Positions 52,824-60,664 of a stretch of 64,000 bases of DNA are shown here, in pieces; positions within the stretch are counted from its first letter, which is position 1, and the number at the start of each line of letters is the position of its first letter. Origin of the DNA: Acidobacteriota bacterium (GTDB lineage: Bacteria > Acidobacteriota > Vicinamibacteria > Vicinamibacterales > UBA8438); assembly GCA_009861545.1 (NCBI GenBank), contig VXME01000029.1, positions 306-64,305 on the forward strand, given 5' to 3'. Under the pieces are notes generated by a model. It had not been told where the DNA came from and ran no database searches. It saw nothing but the letters and a program-made list of their open reading frames with translations. The position numbers and the translations under genes were made by a program.

Positions 52824-53846
52824 CTAGAAGGTGGCGATAGGGTTGAGCGGCGATCCCATGCCCTTCTCGATGCGGAGCGGTGCGGCCACGAAGAGGAACT
52901 CGTAGCGGCCCAGCTCGCGCGCCGTCGCCGCGAGGTCGTCGAAGTCGAGGTTGTCGAAGATGCCGACGCCGAGCGCGACGAGGGCCAGCCGGTGGATCGG
53001 CAATCGGACGTCGTCGGAGAACTCGTGCGGAAACGCGTCGTTCCACATGTCGTGGCCGATGAAGGAGACGCCCCGTTCCTTCAGGTAGTACGCCACGTCG
53101 GCATGGTAGCCGGCCACGCCCTCCTCGGACGGGTTCCAGGGCCCGAGCGTCGCCCGCCGCTTCCACCGGCCGGTGTGCAGCAGGATGACGTCCCCCGGCT
53201 CGACCCGCACGCCCTGGATGCGCTCGAGCTCTTCGAGATCCGCCGCGCGAATCGCCGTGCCCGGTTCCACCCATCCCTCTCCGGAGTCCTTCCCAGGCAG
53301 CAGCGTCGCATCGAACAGGATGCCGCGCGTGAAGATGCCTTCCCGCAGCGCGTGGATGCTTCCCTGCGGGCAACCCTCCGCCGCCCTGACCTGCTCGACC
53401 GTCACCCCGTTGTAGCCCTTGCCGTCGAACATCACGTGGCAGGCGACCGAATCGAGGTGGCTGTGGATGACGCCGTGGTAGGTGCCGGTGTACTGGTAGC
53501 GGTCGGAGGCGCCGGTCTCGCTGACGTTGACCACCTGCCGGTCGAGATACCACTGGCCCTCGAGCGTCGGCGCCTGGATGATGTCGTGGGCCAGCGATAC
53601 GCTGCGGCCCTCGGTCACCAGCGCGGCGGCGGCCTTCCGCTTGTCCGGCGTGATGAGGTTGGCGGCGCCCAGCCCGTCGTCGGGACCCCAGCGGCCCCAG
53701 TTCGAGAGCTCTTCCATCGCGTGCAGGAACTCTGCCTCGGTGGTCATTGCGGGGCGCGTCTGGGAGTCGACGGTGACGGCGGCCGCACCGATCAGCAGCG
53801 CCACGAGAACCGGGACGACGCCGGGTCGCAGAGCGTGAGTGAACAT
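52824..53846 (-). CDS. Cyclase-family protein (kynurenine formamidase-like fold), secreted
   Basis: Start MFTHALRPG, preceded by GGAGG. Motifs WGRWGPDD.LGA.N, GTYHGVIHSHLD, ILLHTGW. Signal peptide present. Confidence 0.75.
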   Translation of the reverse strand: MFTHALRPGVVPVLVALLIGAAAVTVDSQTRPAMTTEAEFLHAMEELSNWGRWGPDDGLGAANLITPDKRKAAAALVTEGRSVSLAHDIIQAPTLEGQWYLDRQVVNVSETGASDRYQYTGTYHGVIHSHLDSVACHVMFDGKGYNGVTVEQVRAAEGCPQGSIHALREGIFTRGILFDATLLPGKDSGEGWVEPGTAIRAADLEELERIQGVRVEPGDVILLHTGRWKRRATLGPWNPSEEGVAGYHADVAYYLKERGVSFIGHDMWNDAFPHEFSDDVRLPIHRLALVALGVGIFDNLDFDDLAATARELGRYEFLFVAAPLRIEKGMGSPLNPIATF

Positions 53847-53968
53847 GGTGCCTCCTTCGGCCAGTCGTGCCGAGTGGGGCAGTTTACCCCGTCTCACCCC
53901 GTCCGGCGACTACCGCCCGGCGAAGCACAGGGCGGCAGGGGCGCTCGCACGCGTCGAGGGCGAAATTC

Positions 53969-53997
53969 TTGGCAGATGCAAAGTTTTGCGCTATAAT
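53969..53997 (+). promoter_or_regulatory. Near-consensus sigma70 promoter (TTGGCA-17 nt-TATAAT) for the Y-RNA/rsr unit
   Basis: TTGGCA at 53969-74 and TATAAT at 53992-97 with exactly 17-nt spacing. The predicted TSS at about G54004 coincides with the first base of the terminal stem of the downstream RNA. Confidence 0.7.
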
Positions 53998-54003
53998 GAT
54001 TCT

Positions 54004-54142
54004 GCTTCGAGCCGGAGCATCGAGGGTTATCAGGGACCACGGAGGTTGTGGGTTCGAGTCCCACTCCGTCGCTCAGGCGGCGGACAGCTCAATCCAGGAC
54101 GAGAGCGCCGGGTTTTCCCTCTTGCGATCCCTTGCTCGAGGC
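54004..54142 (+). ncRNA. Y-RNA-like ncRNA with tRNA-like domain (YrlA-type)
   Basis: A 9-bp terminal stem, GCUUCGAGC (54004-12) with GCUCGAGGC (54134-42). Conserved 5' GAGCCGGAGC..GAGGGUUAUC and 3' CCCU..CCCUUGCUC module. Internal tRNA-like T-arm GUGGG-UUCGAGU-CCCAC (54048-64), stacked on ACGGA/UCCGU (54039-43/54065-69). Located immediately upstream of rsr. Confidence 0.7.
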
Positions 54143-54146
54143 GTTT

Positions 54147-54221
54147 CGCGCTGAGCCGAAGCGGCAGGGTTATCTGCTTCCAACGCAACCCCCCCTTCCG
54201 CAGCCCCTTGTTCAGTGCGCC
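54147..54221 (+). ncRNA. Short Y-RNA-like ncRNA (second copy)
   Basis: GCGCUGAGCCGAAGCGGCAGGGUUAUCU...CCCUUCCGCAGCCCCUUGUUCAGUGCGC. Terminal stem GCGC+UGAGC with GUUCA+GCGC. Inner stem GCGGCAGGG/CCCUUCCGC. Same conserved module as the other two elements. Confidence 0.6.
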
Positions 54222-54244
54222 ATGACGCGAATGGACACACTGAC

Positions 54245-55897
54245 ATGCGGGTTCTCAAGAACATCCACGGCGCCCCCGCGCCCCAGTCGGAGCCGATCGC
54301 GGGCCGCGAGACCGGGATGGTCCGCAACGCGGCGGGCGGTTACGTCTTCCCCGTCACGGACTGGATCCGCCTCGAACGGTTCCTGATCCTCGGAACCGAA
54401 GGCGGCACCTACTACACCGACGCGCGCACGCTTACCCTGGGGAACGCCGCTGTCGTACGCCGTTGCCTGGAAGCGGACGGGTCACGCACGGTGGAGACCA
54501 TCGTGGAGATCAGCGTCCGGGGTCGGGCCCCGTCGAACGACCCGGCGCTGTTCGCGCTGGCGATGGCGGCGAGCTTCGGCGATCCGAAGGACCGTCGGGC
54601 TGCCGGCGAGGCGCTGCCCCGGGTCGCTCGCATCGGGACGCACCTGCTGCACTTCGTCTCCTTCGTGAACGACATGCGCGGTTGGGGACGGTCGATCAAG
54701 CGCGCCGTCGGGCGCTGGTATACGGATCAGGAACTGGACCGGCTGACCCGCCAGGTGCTCAAGTATCGTCAGCGCGACGGTTGGAGCCATCGTGACGTGT
54801 TGCGACTGACCCACCCGAAGTGCGCCTCCGGGCAGCGGCTGAACGATCTCATGAGGTGGGTCACACATCCGGACACGACGCAGGTCGATCCGAAGCAGTT
54901 GCCGCTGGTGGACGCATTTCAGCGGCTACAGCGGGCGGAGACCGTCTCGGAAACCGCCGGGCTGTTGAAGGAACACGCGTGGCTGTCGCGCGAGATGGTG
55001 CCGACCGAACATCTGGCGCAGAAGGCCGTCTGGGAGGCGCTGCTCCCCAATCTGCCGATGACCGCGCTCGTGCGGAACCTGCCGGTGATGACGCGGCTCG
55101 ACGCCCTGCGGCCGCTGGCGGACGCAACGCGTGCGGTGACGGCGCGATTGACCGATCCGGAGGCGCTGCGCGCGGCCCGCGTGCATCCCCTGGCTTTGCT
55201 GGTCGCCTCGCGTACCTATGGCCAGGGCCGTTCGGAGCGCGGGTCGAGTACGTGGACGCCGACGCCCGCAGTCGCGGAGGCGCTGGAGCAGGCCTGCGTA
55301 CTGGCGTTCGATCACCTGGAGCCGATGGCCGGGCGCGTCTATCTCGCGGTCGACGTGTCCGGATCGATGGGCTGGTCGCACGTTGCCGGGCTGTCGAACC
55401 TGACGGCGCGGGAGGCCGCCGCGGCCATGGCGATGGTCATCGCCCGACACGCCGATCGGCACGTCATCAAGGGTTTTTCGGCGGCCGGCGGTGGAGGTCC
55501 TTCCAGCGGTGGATGGGCGCACCGGACCGCCATGCAGGCGTTGCCGATTACGGGTTCCAGCACGCTCCGCGAGGCGGTCGAGGCGACCACCGACTTGCCG
55601 TTCGGCGGTACGGACTGCGCACTGCCGATGCTGGATGCCCTGGAACGGGGAATCGAGGCCGACGTCTTCATCGTGCTTACCGACAACGAGACGTGGGCGG
55701 GGCGGATGCACCCGAGCGAGGCCCTGCGCCAGTACCGGCGCAGGACCGGCATTCCGGCCAGGCTGGTGGTGGTGGGGATGACGGCCACCGAATGCAGCAT
55801 CGCCGATCCCGAGGATGCCGGCATGCTGGACGTGGTCGGGTTCGACACCGCCGCACCGAACGTGATTCGAGAGTTCGTCGGAGGCGTTGCCGCGTGA
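54245..55897 (+). CDS. rsr: Ro60-related protein (TROVE domain + vWA/MIDAS)
   Basis: N-terminal PQSEPIAGRE..VRNAAGGYVFPVTDWIRLERFLILGTEGGTYY (TROVE hallmark). C-terminal vWA with MIDAS VDVSGSMG and GGTDC. ATG at 54245 is preferred over the GTG at 54215, which lies inside the upstream RNA stem. Confidence 0.9.
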   Translation: MRVLKNIHGAPAPQSEPIAGRETGMVRNAAGGYVFPVTDWIRLERFLILGTEGGTYYTDARTLTLGNAAVVRRCLEADGSRTVETIVEISVRGRAPSNDPALFALAMAASFGDPKDRRAAGEALPRVARIGTHLLHFVSFVNDMRGWGRSIKRAVGRWYTDQELDRLTRQVLKYRQRDGWSHRDVLRLTHPKCASGQRLNDLMRWVTHPDTTQVDPKQLPLVDAFQRLQRAETVSETAGLLKEHAWLSREMVPTEHLAQKAVWEALLPNLPMTALVRNLPVMTRLDALRPLADATRAVTARLTDPEALRAARVHPLALLVASRTYGQGRSERGSSTWTPTPAVAEALEQACVLAFDHLEPMAGRVYLAVDVSGSMGWSHVAGLSNLTAREAAAAMAMVIARHADRHVIKGFSAAGGGGPSSGGWAHRTAMQALPITGSSTLREAVEATTDLPFGGTDCALPMLDALERGIEADVFIVLTDNETWAGRMHPSEALRQYRRRTGIPARLVVVGMTATECSIADPEDAGMLDVVGFDTAAPNVIREFVGGVAA

Positions 55898-55952
55898 GAG
55901 GGCGGGTTCTCGGTCCCCGTACCGAGTGAGACCTGCCAGGGTCGTCGTTGCC

Positions 55953-56045
55953 GCGAGCCGAAGGGCGCGCTGAGCCGAAGCGCGAGGGTTATCTGCTTGA
56001 AACGGAGACCTACCCTCCCGCACTCCTTGTTCAGCGCATTCTCGC
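55953..56045 (+). ncRNA. Y-RNA-like ncRNA (third copy, downstream of rsr)
   Basis: GCGCUGAGCCGAAGCGCGAGGGUUAUCUGCUU...CCCUCCCGCACUCCUUGUUCAGCGC. Perfect 7-bp stem GCGCUGA/UCAGCGC (55967-73/56031-37), extended by G-U and C-G pairs. Inner stem GCGCGAGGG/CCCUCCCGC. Possible outer extension GCGAG/CUCGC. The ends are approximate. Confidence 0.6.
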
Positions 56046-56159
56046 CGCGCGTCGGCGTACCGAGGGGGGCCGGAAGGCCCCCTGGAAAGTCTCCCTGCAC
56101 GCGCGTCCAGCGCAGCAGGTTTCCGCTCCGTAGTTGCCGTCGTGGCGAGCCTGCCGTTT

Positions 56160-58559
56160 CTAGTATCCCTCCAGGACCGGGAACCGTTCGTCGTCCGGAA
56201 GCGGTTGCACGTCAAGTGCGTTGAGCGCCATCGACACCATCCGGTAGCGCGCCGCGCTCAGGGTGATGCTCATCATCTGGTGCGTGTCGTAGCGCGACGA
56301 CAGGTCCGCCCAGGTCTCGTCGGCGATCATCGAGTCGCGGAACATCTCGTTGGCGGCGTCGATGAGGGCGAGCTCGTTGGCGCCCCAGCCCGACTGATCG
56401 CGGCCCTGCGCGATCCAGACCGGATTCAGGCCGTGGTCGCGGGCCCGGCCGACGCTGCCGACGTGCTTGGCCCACTCGTAGACCGCGCCGGAGTTCCAGC
56501 CCATGCGCAGGATGAGCAGCTCGCGGTCGTGCGGCGTCAGTCGCGACCGCTCCGGATCGAGCACGTAGCGCGGGTTCAGGTTGCGCGCCTCCACCATCGT
56601 CGGGTGCTGCAGGAACGTTCGCGAGACCCGCAGGCCGTCGCCTTCGACCGGCTCGACGCGCGGCGTCGTCAGCGGCGGCTCCTGGTCCGGGACCACCACG
56701 CGATAGCCGACGTCGTCCACCGGCATCAGGGCCTCGGCCGGGACGCCGTCGTCCGGCTGGATGCCGAGCGAGTTGAAGAGGATCGCGTTGGTGGTGGTCC
56801 AGCCCACGGTCATTACCGCGTCGATCAGGTTGTGGGTGTCGAACTGCTCCGCCAGCGCCTCCCACGTCCGGTCGGTGACCGCCGCGTGGCGGAACAACTG
56901 GTCCGCGAAGCCGATGAGGATCGCCTCGAACGGGTCCCAGTCGTCGCCCGGACCCTGGGCCACGAGCATGACCTCAGCCGCGGTCAGGCCCGCCTCGGCC
57001 GCGCGGCTCGCCTCTGCCGCCCAGATGTTGGCGCTCTGGGTGAGCCACGCGGTGCGCAGGATGAGGATGGCGCGGTGGCGCGGCGACAGCGTCGATTCGT
57101 TGGCGATGTAGTTGGTGAACGGCAGCACGCGGTCGGCCAGGGCGGGCACCCGGGCCAGCGTGCGCACGACGTTGGCGGAGTGTCCGTCGGCCGAGTGTTT
57201 CTCGACGCTCGCGCGCTGCTCGGCGGTCCGGTCCGCTTCCGCCAGCGGCGGCACGCGCGCATCGGTCAACCGCACCGCCGGCACGACGGTGCCGGGCGCC
57301 TCGGTGATGGCGCGGGCGGGCTCGATGCGCAGCAGGGCGCCGTTGTCCTCCTCCGTCAGCACGTACAGGTAGCCGTCGGGTCCCTGCTGGACGTCGCGCA
57401 CCCGCTGCTTCAGCTCCATCAGCAGCCACTCGCGGCGGATCTCCTGTCCCTGCCGGTTGAAGACGACCCGCTCGAGGTGGCCGGTGTGCTGCATCCGGCC
57501 CACCATCATCGAGCCGACGAAGAGGTTGCCGCGCCAGGCGGGGAAGTGCTCGCCGTCGTAGAAGGTGAGGCCCGACGGGGCGATCGACGGCCACCACATC
57601 ACGTGCGGTCCGGTGAACTCGGGCAGCCACGGCGTCTCGGTGATCGGCCGGCCGCCGTAGGTGCGGCTGTAGGAGGCGATGGGCCAGCCGTAGTTCGAGC
57701 CGGGCTGGATGATGTTGGCCTCGTCGCCGCCCTGCACCCCGTGCTCGGTGGCCCACAGCTCGCCGGTGTCCGGATGGAAGGCGAGGCCGATCTGGTTGCG
57801 ATGGCCCATCGTCCAGATCTCGGGGTGGTAGTCGGGGTCGCCGACGAACGGATTGTCGTCGGGCGCCGTGCCGTCGTCGTTCAGGCGCAGCAGCTTGCCG
57901 AAGTGGGTTTGCCCGTCCTGGGCGTACTCACCGGTGCCGGCGAACTCGAACGCGCCGCCGACGGTCATGAACAGCTTGTTGTCCGGTCCCCAGATCAGCC
58001 GCGACGCCGCGATGCCGCCGCCCCAGCCGTCGGCGACGAAGATGTCGCGCGTCTCGGTCAGCGCGCCGGCCCCTTCGTCGAGGCGCCCGCGCGCCAGCGC
58101 CACGGTGGCGCCCTGCCGACCGTCGCGCTCCTCCCCCTGCGAGTAGGTGAGATAGACGAGGGTGTCGTCCTCGGGATGGACCACCACGTCCATCAGCCCC
58201 GCCAGCCGCACGCCGGTGAAGACCTCCGGCACGCCGGGAACGTCCCCGTCGAGGAGCTGCCCGTTGCGGATGACCCGCAGCGTGCCCCGGTCGCGCTCGG
58301 TGACCAGGATGTCGCCGTTGCGGCGGAACGCCATCCCCCACGGGTGATCGAGCCCGGTCACGATCGGCACCACGCGGATGCGCGGCTGCTCGGCCGTGTA
58401 CAGCACGACCGGCCGGTCCGGCGGCGGCAGGCCGGGCACGCCCCGCAGCGCGGAGGCGCCGGTGCGGTTCTGGGCCCCGGCCGTGGTCTGGAGCAGCGCG
58501 GCGCAGGCGATGACGACGGCGGCGGCGAGCGCGGTGCGGAACGGCGTCGTGCGGGTCAT
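56160..58559 (-). CDS. Fusion protein: soluble PQQ-dependent sugar (glucose/sorbosone) dehydrogenase-like propeller + two carboxymuconolactone decarboxylase (AhpD-like) domains
   Basis: Start MTRTTPFRTALAAAVVIACAALL (cat at 58557-59, GGGAGGA upstream). sGDH-like motifs are HPWGMAF..NGDILVTER, GLMDVVVHP, HFGKLLRLNDDG, WTMGHRN..GLAFHP.TGELW..EHG. The C-terminal half carries two CMD-like repeats (ILILRTAWLT...IWAAE; LLILRMGWNSGAVYEWAKH). Confidence 0.75.
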   Translation of the reverse strand: MTRTTPFRTALAAAVVIACAALLQTTAGAQNRTGASALRGVPGLPPPDRPVVLYTAEQPRIRVVPIVTGLDHPWGMAFRRNGDILVTERDRGTLRVIRNGQLLDGDVPGVPEVFTGVRLAGLMDVVVHPEDDTLVYLTYSQGEERDGRQGATVALARGRLDEGAGALTETRDIFVADGWGGGIAASRLIWGPDNKLFMTVGGAFEFAGTGEYAQDGQTHFGKLLRLNDDGTAPDDNPFVGDPDYHPEIWTMGHRNQIGLAFHPDTGELWATEHGVQGGDEANIIQPGSNYGWPIASYSRTYGGRPITETPWLPEFTGPHVMWWPSIAPSGLTFYDGEHFPAWRGNLFVGSMMVGRMQHTGHLERVVFNRQGQEIRREWLLMELKQRVRDVQQGPDGYLYVLTEEDNGALLRIEPARAITEAPGTVVPAVRLTDARVPPLAEADRTAEQRASVEKHSADGHSANVVRTLARVPALADRVLPFTNYIANESTLSPRHRAILILRTAWLTQSANIWAAEASRAAEAGLTAAEVMLVAQGPGDDWDPFEAILIGFADQLFRHAAVTDRTWEALAEQFDTHNLIDAVMTVGWTTTNAILFNSLGIQPDDGVPAEALMPVDDVGYRVVVPDQEPPLTTPRVEPVEGDGLRVSRTFLQHPTMVEARNLNPRYVLDPERSRLTPHDRELLILRMGWNSGAVYEWAKHVGSVGRARDHGLNPVWIAQGRDQSGWGANELALIDAANEMFRDSMIADETWADLSSRYDTHQMMSITLSAARYRMVSMALNALDVQPLPDDERFPVLEGY

Positions 58560-58678
58560 GGATTCCTCCCCGTGGCGTGGGGACAACTCTACCGGAAACG
58601 GGCGGGGAGAGTTCTGCGAGAGTCGCGCTGCGTCGGTGGGCGCGTGCGATCGCCCGCACCTCGCGCACCGCGCAGGCC

Positions 58679-60661
58679 TCAATGCCGTCGGCTTCTCATT
58701 CTGAACCTGAACCCCTTGTCCGGAACGAAGGAGGGAAAGAGAACCCAACGGTCCGTCTTCAATTCATAGGTCGGCGGAACCAGCTCCATGTCGGCCTCGT
58801 GCAGCAGGGTCGCGACAAGTAGCGGCAGTTGCGTTTCGGCGAACCCGCGGCCGGCGCAATGATGCACGCCGACGCCGAAAGGCGCGAACACGCCCGGCTG
58901 CTTGTGTTCCTCACGCCCCGGCAGGTAGCGGTCTATGTCGAACCGCTGCGGATCGGGAAAGTGCTCCGGCAGGTCGTGCGTGACGAAAAAGGCGAGGAAC
59001 AGATCCGCACCCGCGGGAATCCGGTGTCCGTCGAAGTCGAACGACGTGGTCACCTTGCGTTGAATCCCCGGGACCGGCGTATACATGCGCAGCGCTTCGA
59101 GCATGATCCGGTACAGGACGTCCAACTCGTGCACCTTCGCCGCATCCGGTGTACCGCCGGCGAACAGGGCGTCCGCCTCGGCCTGCGCCCGCTCCCGCAA
59201 CGCGGGGTTCTTCAGCACGACGTAGAGCATGCAGGCGCCGATGCTCCCCACGGTCTCGACGCCGGCGAACAGCGGCAACAGGGCGGTGAGCGGGAGGTCG
59301 CACTCGGGGAGGAACATCGGGTCGGCGCGGTGCAGCGTCAGGATGTCGTCGATCGCGTTGGCCTTGCGGGCGTGCTGCTGCAATTGGTGTTGCGTCAACC
59401 ACCTGTCCGACAATTCCGCCGCGCGGCGGAGCGCACGCCGCTGCCGGGGCGTCCTGGGCAATCGGGGCGTATGCAGGAAGCCGCGGGTCACGGCCTCTCT
59501 GAGGACCAGGCGCACGTCGTCGATGTACTCCGCTGTCGACGATTGCGCGACGATTGCGCTCGTCGTCTCGCCGACCAGGCGGAGGATGGCAGGGAGAGCG
59601 CGCAACGGCGCGTTCAGCGGCATCGCGGCCACGGACCGCCGGATGACATCCACCGCTGCGGGGATCTCGGATTCGATGAGCTGCCGGGAAAGGCCGTCCC
59701 TGGTCTCGCGGCGCATCCGAACGTGGTCCTTGCCGTTCATGTTCAGCACGAAGCGCGTGGCGCCGAACTCCGCACAGAGCGGATCCCACATGTCGGACGT
59801 ATGCAAATGCATGCGCTCCGAGCGGGACACGAACAGGTTGGCTTCCTGTCCTGCCAGGGCGACGAAGTTGCGCGTCAACGTCTTGACCCTGAAAACAGGC
59901 CCGACGCGCTGGTACTCCTGCACGAAGAACGTCCTTGGGTCGCGCGCCACGGCGAACGTGCTGCCCACCAGCGGCCAGCCGCGGGCCAGCGGCAGACCGG
60001 CGCCGCCGTCGCGCGCGGCGCGAGCCGCCGGTCGTACCATGCGCACCAGGGTCGCCACGGCCCGCCCGATCAGGTCGAGGCGGCTGACGATCGCGATCCG
60101 TTTTCGCGCCTTGACGAGTTCCTCTGCCGTGAGGAGCTTTCGCCAAACGTCGCAGGCATCGACCAGGCTGATGATCACGATGTCCGCCGGGTCCGGGATG
60201 TCGTCGCTGAACAGAACCCGCATGATGCGCAGCCTGACGTGCTCCTGCGTCGCTCCGTTCGTCGATGGATAGCGCCGCGCGTGCGCCACCTCCGGCGTCA
60301 GGGACAGGAATGCGTCCTCGCCGGGCTCGCGGAGTATGCCCCGGGAGACCAGCCGGGCAATCGTCCGCTCGCGGATCTCGTGCGCCCGCCGGGCCGTGCG
60401 TTCCACCCAGTACAACGCGTCATGCGTCTCTTGCGCGCCGACGATGTCGGCCAGCGTGGGGTCGAGCACGTCGTCACCGAGCGGCATTGGATCGCTGGGC
60501 GTGAGGTTGTCCAAATCGGTATCGATGCGATTCGCCAATTGCAGGTCCATCAACACCGCGCCGGCGAGAACCAGATGTTCCGTACGTTCGGTCATCGGGA
60601 GGAGCGTGCCGTGTTGCTCGTCCAGGAGAAACAGCAGGAACTCTTCGGCGGCAAGCAGCAT
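58679..60661 (-). CDS. GPP34/GOLPH3-like domain fused to cytochrome P450
   Basis: N-terminal LLAAEEFLLFLLDEQHGTL...LVLAGAVLMDLQLANRI (GPP34-type). P450 I-helix LFAGVETVG, ExxR LEALRMY, heme loop FGVGVHHCAGRGFAE. The ATG at 60661 is one codon inside the GTG at 60664. Confidence 0.8.
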   Translation of the reverse strand: MLLAAEEFLLFLLDEQHGTLLPMTERTEHLVLAGAVLMDLQLANRIDTDLDNLTPSDPMPLGDDVLDPTLADIVGAQETHDALYWVERTARRAHEIRERTIARLVSRGILREPGEDAFLSLTPEVAHARRYPSTNGATQEHVRLRIMRVLFSDDIPDPADIVIISLVDACDVWRKLLTAEELVKARKRIAIVSRLDLIGRAVATLVRMVRPAARAARDGGAGLPLARGWPLVGSTFAVARDPRTFFVQEYQRVGPVFRVKTLTRNFVALAGQEANLFVSRSERMHLHTSDMWDPLCAEFGATRFVLNMNGKDHVRMRRETRDGLSRQLIESEIPAAVDVIRRSVAAMPLNAPLRALPAILRLVGETTSAIVAQSSTAEYIDDVRLVLREAVTRGFLHTPRLPRTPRQRRALRRAAELSDRWLTQHQLQQHARKANAIDDILTLHRADPMFLPECDLPLTALLPLFAGVETVGSIGACMLYVVLKNPALRERAQAEADALFAGGTPDAAKVHELDVLYRIMLEALRMYTPVPGIQRKVTTSFDFDGHRIPAGADLFLAFFVTHDLPEHFPDPQRFDIDRYLPGREEHKQPGVFAPFGVGVHHCAGRGFAETQLPLLVATLLHEADMELVPPTYELKTDRWVLFPSFVPDKGFRFRMRSRRH

Positions 60662-60664
60662 CAC

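What the first reader, a model, noticed from the sequence alone, without database searches (positions are those of the whole stretch)
53969..56045. Ro60 (rsr) locus with three Y-RNA-like elements, one carrying a tRNA-like domain and a near-consensus promoter
**Seen in sequence.**
- Three elements (54004-54142, 54147-54221, ~55953-56045) share a common module.
  - 5' side: (G/C)GAGCCG(A/G)AGC..(G/C)AGGGUUAUC.
  - 3' side: CCCU..C(C/U)CCUUG(U/C)UC.
- Their ends pair into 7-9-bp terminal stems.
- An inner GGG/CCC-capped stem is separated from the terminal stem by a CCGNA/UU internal loop.
- The first element starts exactly where TTGGCA-17-TATAAT predicts a transcription start.
- It also contains GUGGG-UUCGAGU-CCCAC stacked on ACGGA/UCCGU, which is a T-arm plus acceptor-like mimic.
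- Two elements lie upstream and one downstream of a TROVE+vWA gene.

**Established knowledge.**
- Bacterial Rsr proteins bind Y RNAs encoded nearby.
- YrlA-type RNAs mimic tRNA.
- The CCGAAG...GUUAUCU and CCUUGUUC strings also recall, from memory, the conserved parts of human Y1 RNA.

**Inference.**
- Three Y-RNA paralogues at one locus would be unusually rich, and they are probably unannotated.
- The neighbouring genes (cyclase, NHL, sGDH fusion) differ from the rtcBA context known in enterobacteria.
Basis: partly seen in the sequence, partly recalled or inferred. Interest (0 to 1): 0.65.

Follow-up and report, generated by a model that had tools for sequence, protein, structure and literature searches.

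The report
Three Y RNAs around bacterial Ro60
A bacterial Ro60 (rsr) gene in this soil-metagenome window is flanked by three small structured RNAs of the known Y-RNA kind, one with a tRNA-like domain; they look real and are well conserved, but three per locus is normal, not unusually rich.

Summary
Gene 54245-55897 (+) is a full-length Ro60/Rsr. Three elements on the same strand share one module: a 9-10 bp terminal stem, a bulged C in a GNCGRA motif, an inner stem, and GGUUAUC. They lie at 54004-54142, 54147-54219 and 55967-56037.

A covariance model built from related rsr loci finds exactly these three in the 64-kb window. It finds 38 elements in 17 of 28 sources searched, all on the rsr strand. 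Pairing is 91.6% against 38-50% for slid controls, and 18 of 24 pairs show compensatory changes.

Element 1 is a YrlA-type Y RNA. It matches Rfam YrlA at 41.5 bits (E 3e-7), below the gathering score of 69. It has a T arm, an acceptor-like hairpin and a D arm in permuted tRNA order, plus an A15:U48 Levitt pair. Elements 2 and 3 are short stem-loop Y RNAs of the YrlB/Yrn2 type.

A conserved sigma-70-like promoter ends 7 nt before element 1 and is the only candidate promoter for the locus. The RNAs are therefore probably cut out of one rsr transcript.

Two claims needed correction. Three Y RNAs per locus is typical (1-4 model hits per locus; 3-4 in 8 of 17). The proposed ACGGA/UCCGU acceptor pairing is not supported.

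Verdict: new members of a known kind; binding and expression are untested.

The parts
53969..53997 (+). Sigma-70-like promoter, TTGGCA-17-TATAAT. The predicted start is near G54004.
   Evidence: It matches 11 of 12 positions and is the only promoter-like site in 53700-56400. Equivalent TTGACR-17/18-NANNNT sites end 7-9 nt before the long element in L002 and L003. The upstream gene is divergent, so this is the only candidate promoter for rsr.
54004..54142 (+). Element 1: a YrlA-type Y RNA of 139 nt. It has a terminal stem (54004-54012 with 54134-54142), a bulged C at 54013, the GCCGGAG motif, an inner stem GAGGG/CCCUC, and a UUAUCA bulge. These enclose a permuted tRNA-like domain.
   Evidence: Rfam YrlA RF02553 scores 41.5 bits, E 3e-7, against a gathering score of 69. 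Model R2 scores 30.7 bits over exactly 54004-54142. The cloverleaf-type fold has -63.2 kcal/mol against an MFE of -65.4.
54048..54064 (+). T-arm mimic within element 1: GUGGG-UUCGAGU-CCCAC.
   Evidence: It aligns to the YrlA T arm. The T stem covaries across rsr loci: GUGGG/CCCAC, GCGGG/CCCGU, GCAGG/CCUGU, GGAGG/CCUUC, GUUGG/CCAAC.
54065..54084 (+). Acceptor-stem-like hairpin within element 1: UCCGUCGC-UCAG-GCGGCGGA, 8 bp.
   Evidence: Pairing probability is 0.96-1.0. The equivalent 6-8 bp hairpins with tetraloops in L011, L016, L018 and L019 differ in sequence but keep the pairing.
54087..54106 (+). D-arm mimic within element 1: GCUC-AAUCCAGGACGA-GAGC.
   Evidence: It aligns to the YrlA D arm. 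The loop has A14, A15, GG and a terminal A. A15 matches U54047 at the position-48 equivalent, giving an A15:U48 Levitt pair. The G15:C48 / A15:U48 covariation holds in 8 of the 9 T+AS+D-type YrlA-like RNAs parsed.
54147..54219 (+). Element 2: a short stem-loop Y RNA of about 73 nt. It has a 10-bp terminal stem, a bulged C, GCCGAAG, an inner stem GCGG.AGGG/CCCUUCCGC, and GGUUAUC. It starts 4-5 nt after element 1 and ends 25 nt before the rsr ATG.
   Evidence: R1 scores 68.7 bits and R2 68.4 bits. Folding z-score is -3.2. It is 84% identical to element 3.
54245..55897 (+). rsr, the Ro60 ortholog, 550 aa.
   Evidence: Pfam TROVE plus vWA_Ro60. PDB matches 2NVO, 1YVP and 9NEN at E 1e-107 to 1e-115. 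Public gene calls on identical contigs use the same start and stop.
55967..56037 (+). Element 3: a short stem-loop Y RNA of 71 nt, starting 70 nt after the rsr stop codon.
   Evidence: R1 scores 87.4 bits and R2 79.2 bits. Orthologous copies lie downstream of rsr in L001-L005.
56064..56083 (+). GC-rich hairpin GGGGGGCC-GGAA-GGCCCCCU with no U tract. It may mark the 3' end of the unit or act as a stabiliser. This is inferred only.
   Evidence: It is present in the MFE and centroid folds of 56038-56110. The consensus scan does not call it a terminator.

Best explanation
The locus is a compact Ro60 ribonucleoprotein unit that encodes the Rsr protein and three of its Y-RNA partners on one strand.

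**Transcription (inferred).** It starts near 54004 from the sigma-70-like promoter. It then runs through element 1, element 2, rsr and element 3.

**Processing (inferred).** The three RNAs are released by processing, as shown for M. smegmatis YrlA/YrlB and D. radiodurans Yrn1/Yrn2. Bound Rsr would protect the base of each terminal stem from further trimming.

**Binding (inferred from homology).** Rsr would recognise the module common to all three: the 5' strand GNCGRA with its bulged C, held in a helix formed by the paired 5' and 3' ends.

**Function (inferred from the Deinococcus and Salmonella systems).** Element 1 also presents a permuted tRNA-like domain (T arm, acceptor-like hairpin, D arm). 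In characterised YrlA RNAs that domain is modified by tRNA enzymes and forms the effector-facing end. The Y RNAs would gate Rsr's cavity and tether it to an exoribonuclease such as PNPase for degradation of structured RNA. The two short Y RNAs would give alternative RNPs.

**What is shown here:** sequence, structure, covariation, strand and position linkage to rsr, and promoter conservation.

**What is not shown:** expression, processing, Rsr binding and function.
For: - **Rsr identity:**
- **Specificity of the module.** Only three hits in 128 kb of window sequence searched (both strands), with filters off. Across the 28 sources searched (17 with hits) there are 38 hits, 38 of 38 on the rsr strand and within about 860 nt of rsr.
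- **Covariation on the model-fitted alignment.** Pairing is 91.6% against 38-50% when partners are slid. 18 of 24 pairs have double changes, in 205 cells. No shuffle out of 500 reaches the observed score.
- **Independent check.** MAFFT plus RNAalifold on 19 short elements recovers the same two helices, with compensatory changes in 13 of 16 pairs.
- **Closest relatives only.** Among the 12 closest copies pairing is 94.4%, with compensatory changes in all three helices.
- **Strand.** The minus-strand reading scores far lower, 18-26 bits against 69-98.
- **Conserved single-stranded motifs.** GGUYAY in 38 of 38, UUAYC in 35 of 38, and GNC[G/U]RA in 29 of 38. These correspond to the GNCGAAN0-1G and YUAY motifs of Chen et al. 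2014.
- **Element 1.** Rfam YrlA E 3e-7. It has the same T-AS-NN-D layout as YrlA-like RNAs in eight distant loci, and the Levitt pair covaries.
- **Promoter.** Conserved in position. The flanking genes are on the other strand, so rsr can only be transcribed through elements 1 and 2.
- **Precedent.** Co-transcription and processing, and at least two Y RNAs per species, are documented in PMC4201824.
Against: - No expression, end-mapping or binding data exist for this organism, which is known only from metagenome contigs.
- Element 1 is below the Rfam gathering score (41.5 against 69 bits). Its 5' motif is GCCGGAG rather than GNCGAA. It has C, not U, at the position-8 equivalent, and a long 12-nt D loop.
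- The alignment used for the main covariation count was fitted to the model.
- No terminator or separate promoter delimits elements 2 and 3. They could therefore remain part of the mRNA.
- The long element of the nearest relatives has lost the acceptor-like hairpin. The full tRNA-like domain is thus not under uniform constraint in this clade.
Confidence: 0.85

Rival explanations
1. Elements 2 and 3 (and perhaps element 1) are not released as separate RNAs. They stay in the 5' leader and 3' trailer of the rsr mRNA as cis-acting Rsr-binding sites. Rsr would then autoregulate or stabilise its own message.
For: - There is only one promoter-like site and no terminator between the parts.
- Element 2 ends 25 nt before the ATG, and element 3 starts 70 nt after the stop.
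- In most loci the last upstream element lies 27-83 nt from the rsr start.
Against: - Position and copy number are free: upstream or downstream, and one to three short copies among close relatives. This fits modular trans-acting RNAs better than position-dependent UTR elements.
- Characterised homologues in the same arrangement are processed into stable Rsr-bound RNAs (PMC4201824).
- The two roles are not mutually exclusive.
Confidence: 0.1
2. The elements are generic repeated extragenic palindromes, a small mobile repeat, or terminator-like hairpins that happen to lie near rsr.
For: They are GC-rich imperfect hairpins present in several copies. A partial extra copy lies at 55953-55966.
Against: - No other copy exists in the 64-kb window, even with filters off.
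- All 38 homologues are next to rsr and on its strand, in phylogenetically distant loci.
- Strand-specific single-stranded motifs are invariant while the stems covary.
- No U tracts are present.
Confidence: 0.02
3. One or more of the three copies is a decaying duplicate. Element 2 is the obvious candidate, as a lineage-specific extra copy. Such a copy would no longer be functional, leaving fewer than three working Y RNAs.
For: - Element 2 sits in a position not seen in the five closest relatives.
- It scores lowest of the short copies, 68.7 against 86-98 bits. It has a mismatch in the inner stem and in the apical hairpin, and a 1-nt insertion in the 3' strand.
- A truncated copy next to element 3 shows that duplication debris exists here.
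Against: - Element 2 keeps every invariant motif: GCCGAAG, the bulged C, and GGUUAUC.
- Its insertion is absorbed by a register shift that lengthens the terminal stem to 10 bp.
- Its fold is as stable relative to shuffles as that of element 3, z -3.2.
Confidence: 0.08

Closest known systems
YrlA (Rfam RF02553; S. Typhimurium and M. smegmatis YrlA, Chen et al. 2014, PMC4201824)
   Same: - Encoded next to rsr on the same strand.
- 5' Ro-binding motif.
- Permuted tRNA-like domain in the order T arm, acceptor-like hairpin, two linker bases, D arm.
- Levitt-pair covariation.
- As in M. smegmatis, it lies upstream of rsr, is followed by a second Y RNA, and is outside an rtcBA operon.
   Different: - It is below the Rfam gathering score (41.5 against 69 bits).
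- The motif is GCCGGAG rather than GNCGAA.
- Both strands of a metazoan-like bulged helix are kept, whereas per PMC4201824 only the 5' strand is recognisable in the Salmonella and M. smegmatis RNAs.
- The conserved loop motif is UUAUC rather than the CUAC of the Rfam consensus.
- It has C instead of U at the position-8 equivalent, a 12-nt D loop, and an 8-bp acceptor-like hairpin closed by a tetraloop.
YrlB (Salmonella, M. smegmatis) and D. radiodurans Yrn2: the second, hairpin-type bacterial Y RNAs
   Same: [quoted passage not shown] They carry the Ro-binding motif, lack a full tRNA-like domain, and are co-encoded with a YrlA-type RNA and rsr.
   Different: - There is no sequence similarity to those RNAs beyond the motif, and no curated family exists for them.
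- The apical region is 23-24 nt with a small 4-bp hairpin, not a small loop.
- It is pyrimidine-rich in element 2 (16 of 23) but not in element 3 (12 of 24), by direct count.
- They occur as one to three tandem copies in this clade.
Vertebrate Y RNAs (hY1/RNY1, hY4) and nematode sbRNAs
   Same: - A lower stem with a single bulged C after a helix of 7-9 bp.
- CCGAAG on the 5' strand.
- An upper stem capped by GGG/CCC.
- A UUAUC motif immediately 3' of the upper-stem 5' strand.
- RNY1 nt 1-29 aligns ungapped to elements 2 and 3 with 18-19 identities. The UUAUC motif is described in PMC4726728.
   Different: - The Rfam Y_RNA model gives no hit at E<=10.
- There is no 3' oligo-U tail.
- Transcription is from a bacterial sigma-70-type promoter, probably as part of an mRNA precursor.
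- The loop domains are unrelated.
tRNA
   Same: Element 1 contains a canonical T arm (5 bp plus UUCGAGU), a D arm with GG, a 7-8 bp acceptor-like helix, and a 15:48 pair.
   Different: The order of the arms is circularly permuted and the acceptor is closed by a loop. There is no anticodon arm or free CCA end. ARAGORN finds no tRNA in the window, and the Rfam tRNA model has no hit there.

Membership tests
Bacterial Y RNA (operational definition of Chen et al. 2014) | Encoded within about 4 kb of a Ro60/TROVE gene and on the same strand | tested here: met
   All three lie 25-103 nt from rsr on the + strand. All 38 homologues are on the rsr strand.
Bacterial Y RNA (operational definition of Chen et al. 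2014) | GNCGAAN0-1G motif near the 5' end | tested here: met
   Elements 2 and 3 have GCCGAAG, an exact match. Element 1 has GCCGGAG, with A changed to G. The GNCGGA variant is also present in L008, L011, L017 and L019.
Bacterial Y RNA (operational definition of Chen et al. 2014) | [quoted passage not shown] | tested here: met
   The terminal helix is 96% paired with 7 of 9 pairs covarying. The inner helix is 95% paired with 7 of 9 covarying. RNAalifold recovers both independently.
Bacterial Y RNA (operational definition of Chen et al. 2014) | Bound by Rsr, with accumulation that depends on Rsr | not testable with these tools
   Needs RIP, EMSA or an rsr deletion.
YrlA (Rfam RF02553) | Score at or above the curated gathering threshold (69 bits) | tested here: not met
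   41.5 bits, E 3e-7, full-length model match 1-114. YrlA hits in eight other environmental rsr loci are also all below threshold, at 31-48 bits. The threshold excludes this whole group.
YrlA (Rfam RF02553) | tRNA-like domain with T arm, acceptor-like stem-loop and D arm in that 5'-to-3' order | tested here: met
   T arm 54048-54064, acceptor-like hairpin 54065-54084, D arm 54087-54106.
YrlA (Rfam RF02553) | Levitt pair 15:48 kept as G:C or A:U | tested here: met
   The window has A15:U48. The rule holds in 8 of the 9 T+AS+D-type RNAs parsed from rsr loci.
YrlA (Rfam RF02553) | tRNA-type modifications (Psi55 by TruB, D by DusA); RNase P or CCA processing in some species | not testable with these tools
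   Only the substrate features are visible: the UUCGAGU T loop and a 7-8 bp acceptor-like helix.
Metazoan Y RNA (Rfam RF00019) | Match to the Y_RNA covariance model | tested here: not met
   No Y_RNA hit at E<=10 in 53850-56200.
Metazoan Y RNA (Rfam RF00019) | Lower stem with a bulged C and conserved 5' strand; UUAUC next to the upper stem | tested here: met
   Ungapped alignment to the RNY1 5' end gives 18-19 identities of 29. The features are described in PMC4726728.
Metazoan Y RNA (Rfam RF00019) | 3' oligo-U tail (Pol III termination, La binding) | tested here: not met
   No U run follows any of the three elements.
YrlB/Yrn2-type hairpin Y RNA | [quoted passage not shown] | tested here: inconclusive
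   The long hairpin and co-encoding are met. The apical region is 23-24 nt. It is 70% pyrimidine in element 2 but 50% in element 3, by direct count.
tRNA | Detected by tRNA finders; contiguous cloverleaf with an anticodon arm | tested here: not met
   ARAGORN finds 0 genes in the window. There is no Rfam tRNA hit in the region.

The most novel reading that the evidence does not exclude
The short Y RNAs of these environmental rsr loci keep the whole vertebrate Y-RNA stem design. They share the bulged-C lower helix on both strands, CCGAAG, a GGG/CCC-capped upper stem, and UUAUC at the same spacing as in human Y1. UUAYC is present in 35 of 38 rsr-linked bacterial elements.

The most novel reading is that UUAUC is an ancient Ro60-linked determinant rather than a eukaryote-specific one. 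In animals the motif has so far been tied to DNA-replication activity of sbRNA and Y RNA. This reading would imply that bacterial and animal Y RNAs are homologous, or were exchanged together with Ro60. That contradicts the statement in PMC4726728 that the bacterial RNAs are not homologous with vertebrate Y RNAs.

A second, smaller possibility concerns element 1. Its 7-8 bp acceptor-like helix could make it an RNase P and CCA-adding substrate, as in M. smegmatis, giving a split Y RNA.
Probability: 0.3. Interest if true: 0.55.

Novelty: new member of a known kind. Interest (0 to 1): 0.3.

Why it matters
- **Wider distribution.** The locus extends experimentally defined Y-RNA biology, known from Deinococcus, Salmonella and Mycobacterium, to Vicinamibacterales-like Acidobacteriota from soil metagenomes.
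- **Annotation gap.** Standard annotation misses these genes. YrlA's Rfam threshold excludes them and their environmental relatives, and the short hairpin-type Y RNAs have no curated family at all.
- **A possible new family model.** The model built here finds 38 rsr-linked elements with strong covariation. It could seed a family for the Ro-binding module.
- **Link to animal Y RNAs.** These copies are closer to vertebrate Y RNA stems than those of the model bacteria. They would make good material for asking what Ro60 reads in a Y RNA, including the UUAUC motif.
- **Limits.** None of this changes the picture of how Ro60 RNPs work, and three Y RNAs per locus is normal.

Tried and rejected
- **Rfam at gathering thresholds on the whole window:** nothing found.
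- **Rfam in E-value mode on L001-L005:** no YrlA hit at E<=0.01. The relatives' long elements have lost the acceptor-like hairpin and have an 8-nt T loop.
- **ARAGORN:** no tRNA or tmRNA in the window.
- **Other weak Rfam hits in the region:** aspS at 53869-53949 (E 1), M23, mir-2235, an HCV element and COG2908 (E 4-5). All were judged to be chance.
rejected on energy and probability and on homology to the YrlA layout.
- **Plain MFE folding of element 1:** it does not form the T and D arms (probability 0.05). The tRNA-like fold is only 2.2 kcal/mol higher, before any tertiary contacts are counted.
- **Spacers between the parts** (55898-55966, 54219-54260, 56038-56110): not more structured than shuffles.
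- **Supplementary tables of Chen et al. 2014:** not held in the library. I could not check whether Acidobacteria were already in their list of 254 species.
- **Free-end global alignment of the 3' strands to the RNY4 3' fragment:** uninformative.
- **A 20-bit model hit at 58625-58671,** inside coding sequence: treated as chance.
Full report
**What is in the sequence.**
Region 53969-56083 is a + strand island between genes on the opposite strand.
- Upstream lie a putative cyclase and an NHL-repeat protein. Downstream lie a GSDH+CMD fusion and a GPP34+P450 fusion.
- Public gene calls on identical metagenome contigs give the same picture, with about 400 nt of non-coding DNA upstream and 260 nt downstream of the central gene.
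- The central gene, 54245-55897, is a full-length Ro60/Rsr. It carries TROVE (5e-39) and vWA_Ro60 (5e-59) domains.
- It matches D. radiodurans Rsr (2NVO, 2e-115), Xenopus Ro60 (1YVP, 6e-109) and human RO60 (9NEN) end to end.

**Checking the observation.**
- The promoter TTGGCA-17-TATAAT at 53969-53997 matches 11 of 12 positions. It is the only such site in 53700-56400, against 0.2 expected. Its -10 hexamer ends 7 nt before G54004.
- All three elements fold better than their shuffles, with z from -2.7 to -3.4.
- Elements 2 and 3 are 84% identical.
- Corrections: the conserved unit of element 3 is 55967-56037. The stretch 55953-55966 is a partial second copy of the 5' motif, with GAGCCGAAG occurring at both 55955 and 55972. 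The base before GAGCC is U in elements 2 and 3.

**Related loci.**
- The Rsr protein retrieved five Vicinamibacterales/Vicinamibacteria MAG loci at 76-77% amino-acid identity and one Nonomuraea locus at 39%. It also retrieved 22 metagenome loci, most at 41-51%.
- Each of the five close relatives has a long element behind a TTGACR promoter upstream of rsr. Each also has one to three short elements downstream: GCGCUGAGCCGAAGCGG.AGGGUUAUCU...CCGUUCAGCGC.
- The promoter sits in the same place in L002 and L003, ending 7-9 nt before the RNA.
- The window differs in having one short copy upstream, between the long element and rsr, and one downstream.

**Structure and covariation.**
- On the 12 short copies from the six close loci, the three-helix structure is 94.4% paired, against 36-55% when slid. 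There are compensatory changes in each helix: U-A to C-G, G-C to A-U, and G-C to A-U.
- Model R1, built from these copies, found only the two short elements in the window plus weaker matches in distant loci.
- Model R2 was rebuilt with those distant matches. It found 38 elements in 180 kb, all on the rsr strand.
- With filters off on the whole window, the three elements are the only significant hits.
- On the 38-sequence alignment, 91.6% of cells pair, against 38-50% when slid. 18 of 24 pairs have changes on both sides, in 205 cells, and no shuffle out of 500 reaches the observed score. That alignment is fitted to the model.
- As an independent check, MAFFT plus RNAalifold on 19 short elements recovered the same terminal and inner helices. 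Compensatory changes occur in 13 of 16 pairs.
- The single-stranded motifs are nearly invariant: GGUYAY in 38 of 38, UUAYC in 35 of 38, and GNC[G/U]RA in 29 of 38.
- The minus-strand reading of the same sites scores 18-26 bits against 69-98. The RNA is therefore on the rsr strand.

**Element 1 is a YrlA-type RNA.**
- Rfam YrlA matches 54020-54138 over the whole model at 41.5 bits, E 3e-7, below the gathering score of 69.
- The alignment places:
  - GUGGG-UUCGAGU-CCCAC as the T arm;
  - UCCGUCGC-UCAG-GCGGCGGA as the acceptor-like hairpin;
  - CA as the 8-9 linker;
  - GCUC-AAUCCAGGACGA-GAGC as the D arm.
- This is the circularly permuted tRNA layout that Chen et al. 2014 described.
- The same layout parses in eight YrlA-like RNAs from distant rsr loci, and T and acceptor stems covary. 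The 15:48 Levitt pair follows the G:C / A:U rule in 8 of the 9 T+AS+D-type RNAs parsed, counting the window, which has A15:U48.
- Enforcing the three arms gives -63.2 kcal/mol against an MFE of -65.4.
- YrlA hits in the other environmental loci are also all below threshold, at 31-48 bits. The window's score is therefore typical, and routine Rfam-based annotation would miss these genes.
- Elements 2 and 3 match no Rfam family, including Y_RNA, at E<=10.

**Is three unusual? No.**
- R2 hits per locus are 3 in the window and 2, 4, 3, 3 and 3 in L001-L005. L008, L011 and L022 have 3 each, L006, L018 and L019 have 2, and five further loci have 1.
- Rfam YrlA hits add further copies in L018 and L019.
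- Chen et al. [quoted passage not shown] D. radiodurans has several more small RNAs at the locus.
- The M. smegmatis layout matches the upstream half of this window: YrlA then YrlB upstream of rsr, processed from one precursor, and not under RtcR.

**How it most likely works.**
- The flanking genes are on the other strand and only one promoter-like site exists. rsr must therefore be transcribed through elements 1 and 2. Element 3 follows 70 nt after the stop codon with no promoter of its own.
- I infer a single transcript from about 54004 to beyond 56037. The U-less GC hairpin at 56064-56083 is a possible 3' boundary.
- The three RNAs would be cut out of this transcript and protected by Rsr bound to the GNCGRA/bulged-C helix.
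- By homology with the Deinococcus and Salmonella systems, they would gate Rsr and tether it to an exoribonuclease such as PNPase.
- Expression, processing, binding and function are inferred, not shown.

**Comparison with animal Y RNAs.**
- The RNY1 5' end GGCTGGTCCGAAGGTAGTGAGTTATCTCA, as printed in PMC6052916, aligns without gaps to elements 2 and 3. There are 18-19 identities of 29, with CCGAAG and GUUAUCU at identical spacing.
- Kowalski and Krude (PMC4726728) describe the vertebrate Ro60 site as a helix with a single bulged C. They also describe a conserved UUAUC in the loop next to the upper stem.
- Both features are present here. [quoted passage not shown]
- This is the most interesting aspect, but it refines a known resemblance rather than revealing a new one.

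**Verdict.**
The finding is real and correctly identified. These are new, probably unannotated members of the bacterial Y-RNA kind in an acidobacterial lineage. The claims of unusual richness and of a special genomic context do not hold, and one structural detail was mis-assigned.

Noticed in passing
window 55953-55966: A partial extra copy of the 5' Y-RNA motif (GCGAGCCGAAGGGC) lies directly 5' of element 3. It is absent from the five related loci. It is possibly a scar of the duplication that produced the window-specific arrangement.
   Followed up: partly
window 56064-56083: A strong GC hairpin, GGGGGGCC-GGAA-GGCCCCCU, with no U tract, lies between element 3 and the convergent GSDH+CMD gene. 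It could be a U-less terminator or an RNA-stabilising hairpin serving either strand.
   Followed up: partly
L001:2844-2927; L002-L005 about 2814-2937: The long (YrlA-like) element of the closest relatives is degenerate. L003-L005 lack the acceptor-like hairpin and have an 8-nt T loop. L002 has UUGACUA in the T loop. L001 is cut down to 84 nt with only a T-like hairpin. Only the window copy keeps T, acceptor-like and D arms together.
   Followed up: partly
L008/L009:19-1081; L021:51-626: Arrays of roughly 5-11 tRNA genes lie immediately upstream of the Y RNAs and rsr on the same strand. This recalls the tRNA-Asp/Yrn co-transcription in D. radiodurans and the tRNA clusters of Ro60-encoding phages.
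   Followed up: no
all loci: Outside the Vicinamibacterales group, every detected element lies upstream of rsr. Within that group the short elements are downstream, as tandem copies about 150 nt apart. The window has one on each side.
   Followed up: partly
L011:1058-1336; L019:1040-1330: Two full YrlA-type (tRNA-like) RNAs sit in tandem, followed by a short hairpin Y RNA, upstream of a single rsr gene.
   Followed up: no
window 58679-60664 (-) and 56160-58748 (-): Two unusual domain fusions occur in the neighbouring genes: GPP34 (Golgi phosphoprotein 3 family) with cytochrome P450, and glucose/sorbosone dehydrogenase with a carboxymuconolactone decarboxylase-family domain.
   Followed up: no
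window 53849-53968: The 5' region of the divergent cyclase gene holds a 6-bp hairpin, CCGCCC...GGGCGG, and a weak match to the aspS RNA motif (22 bits, E 1). The match is probably chance. The real cyclase start appears to be the ATG at 53848, preceded by GGAGG.
   Followed up: no
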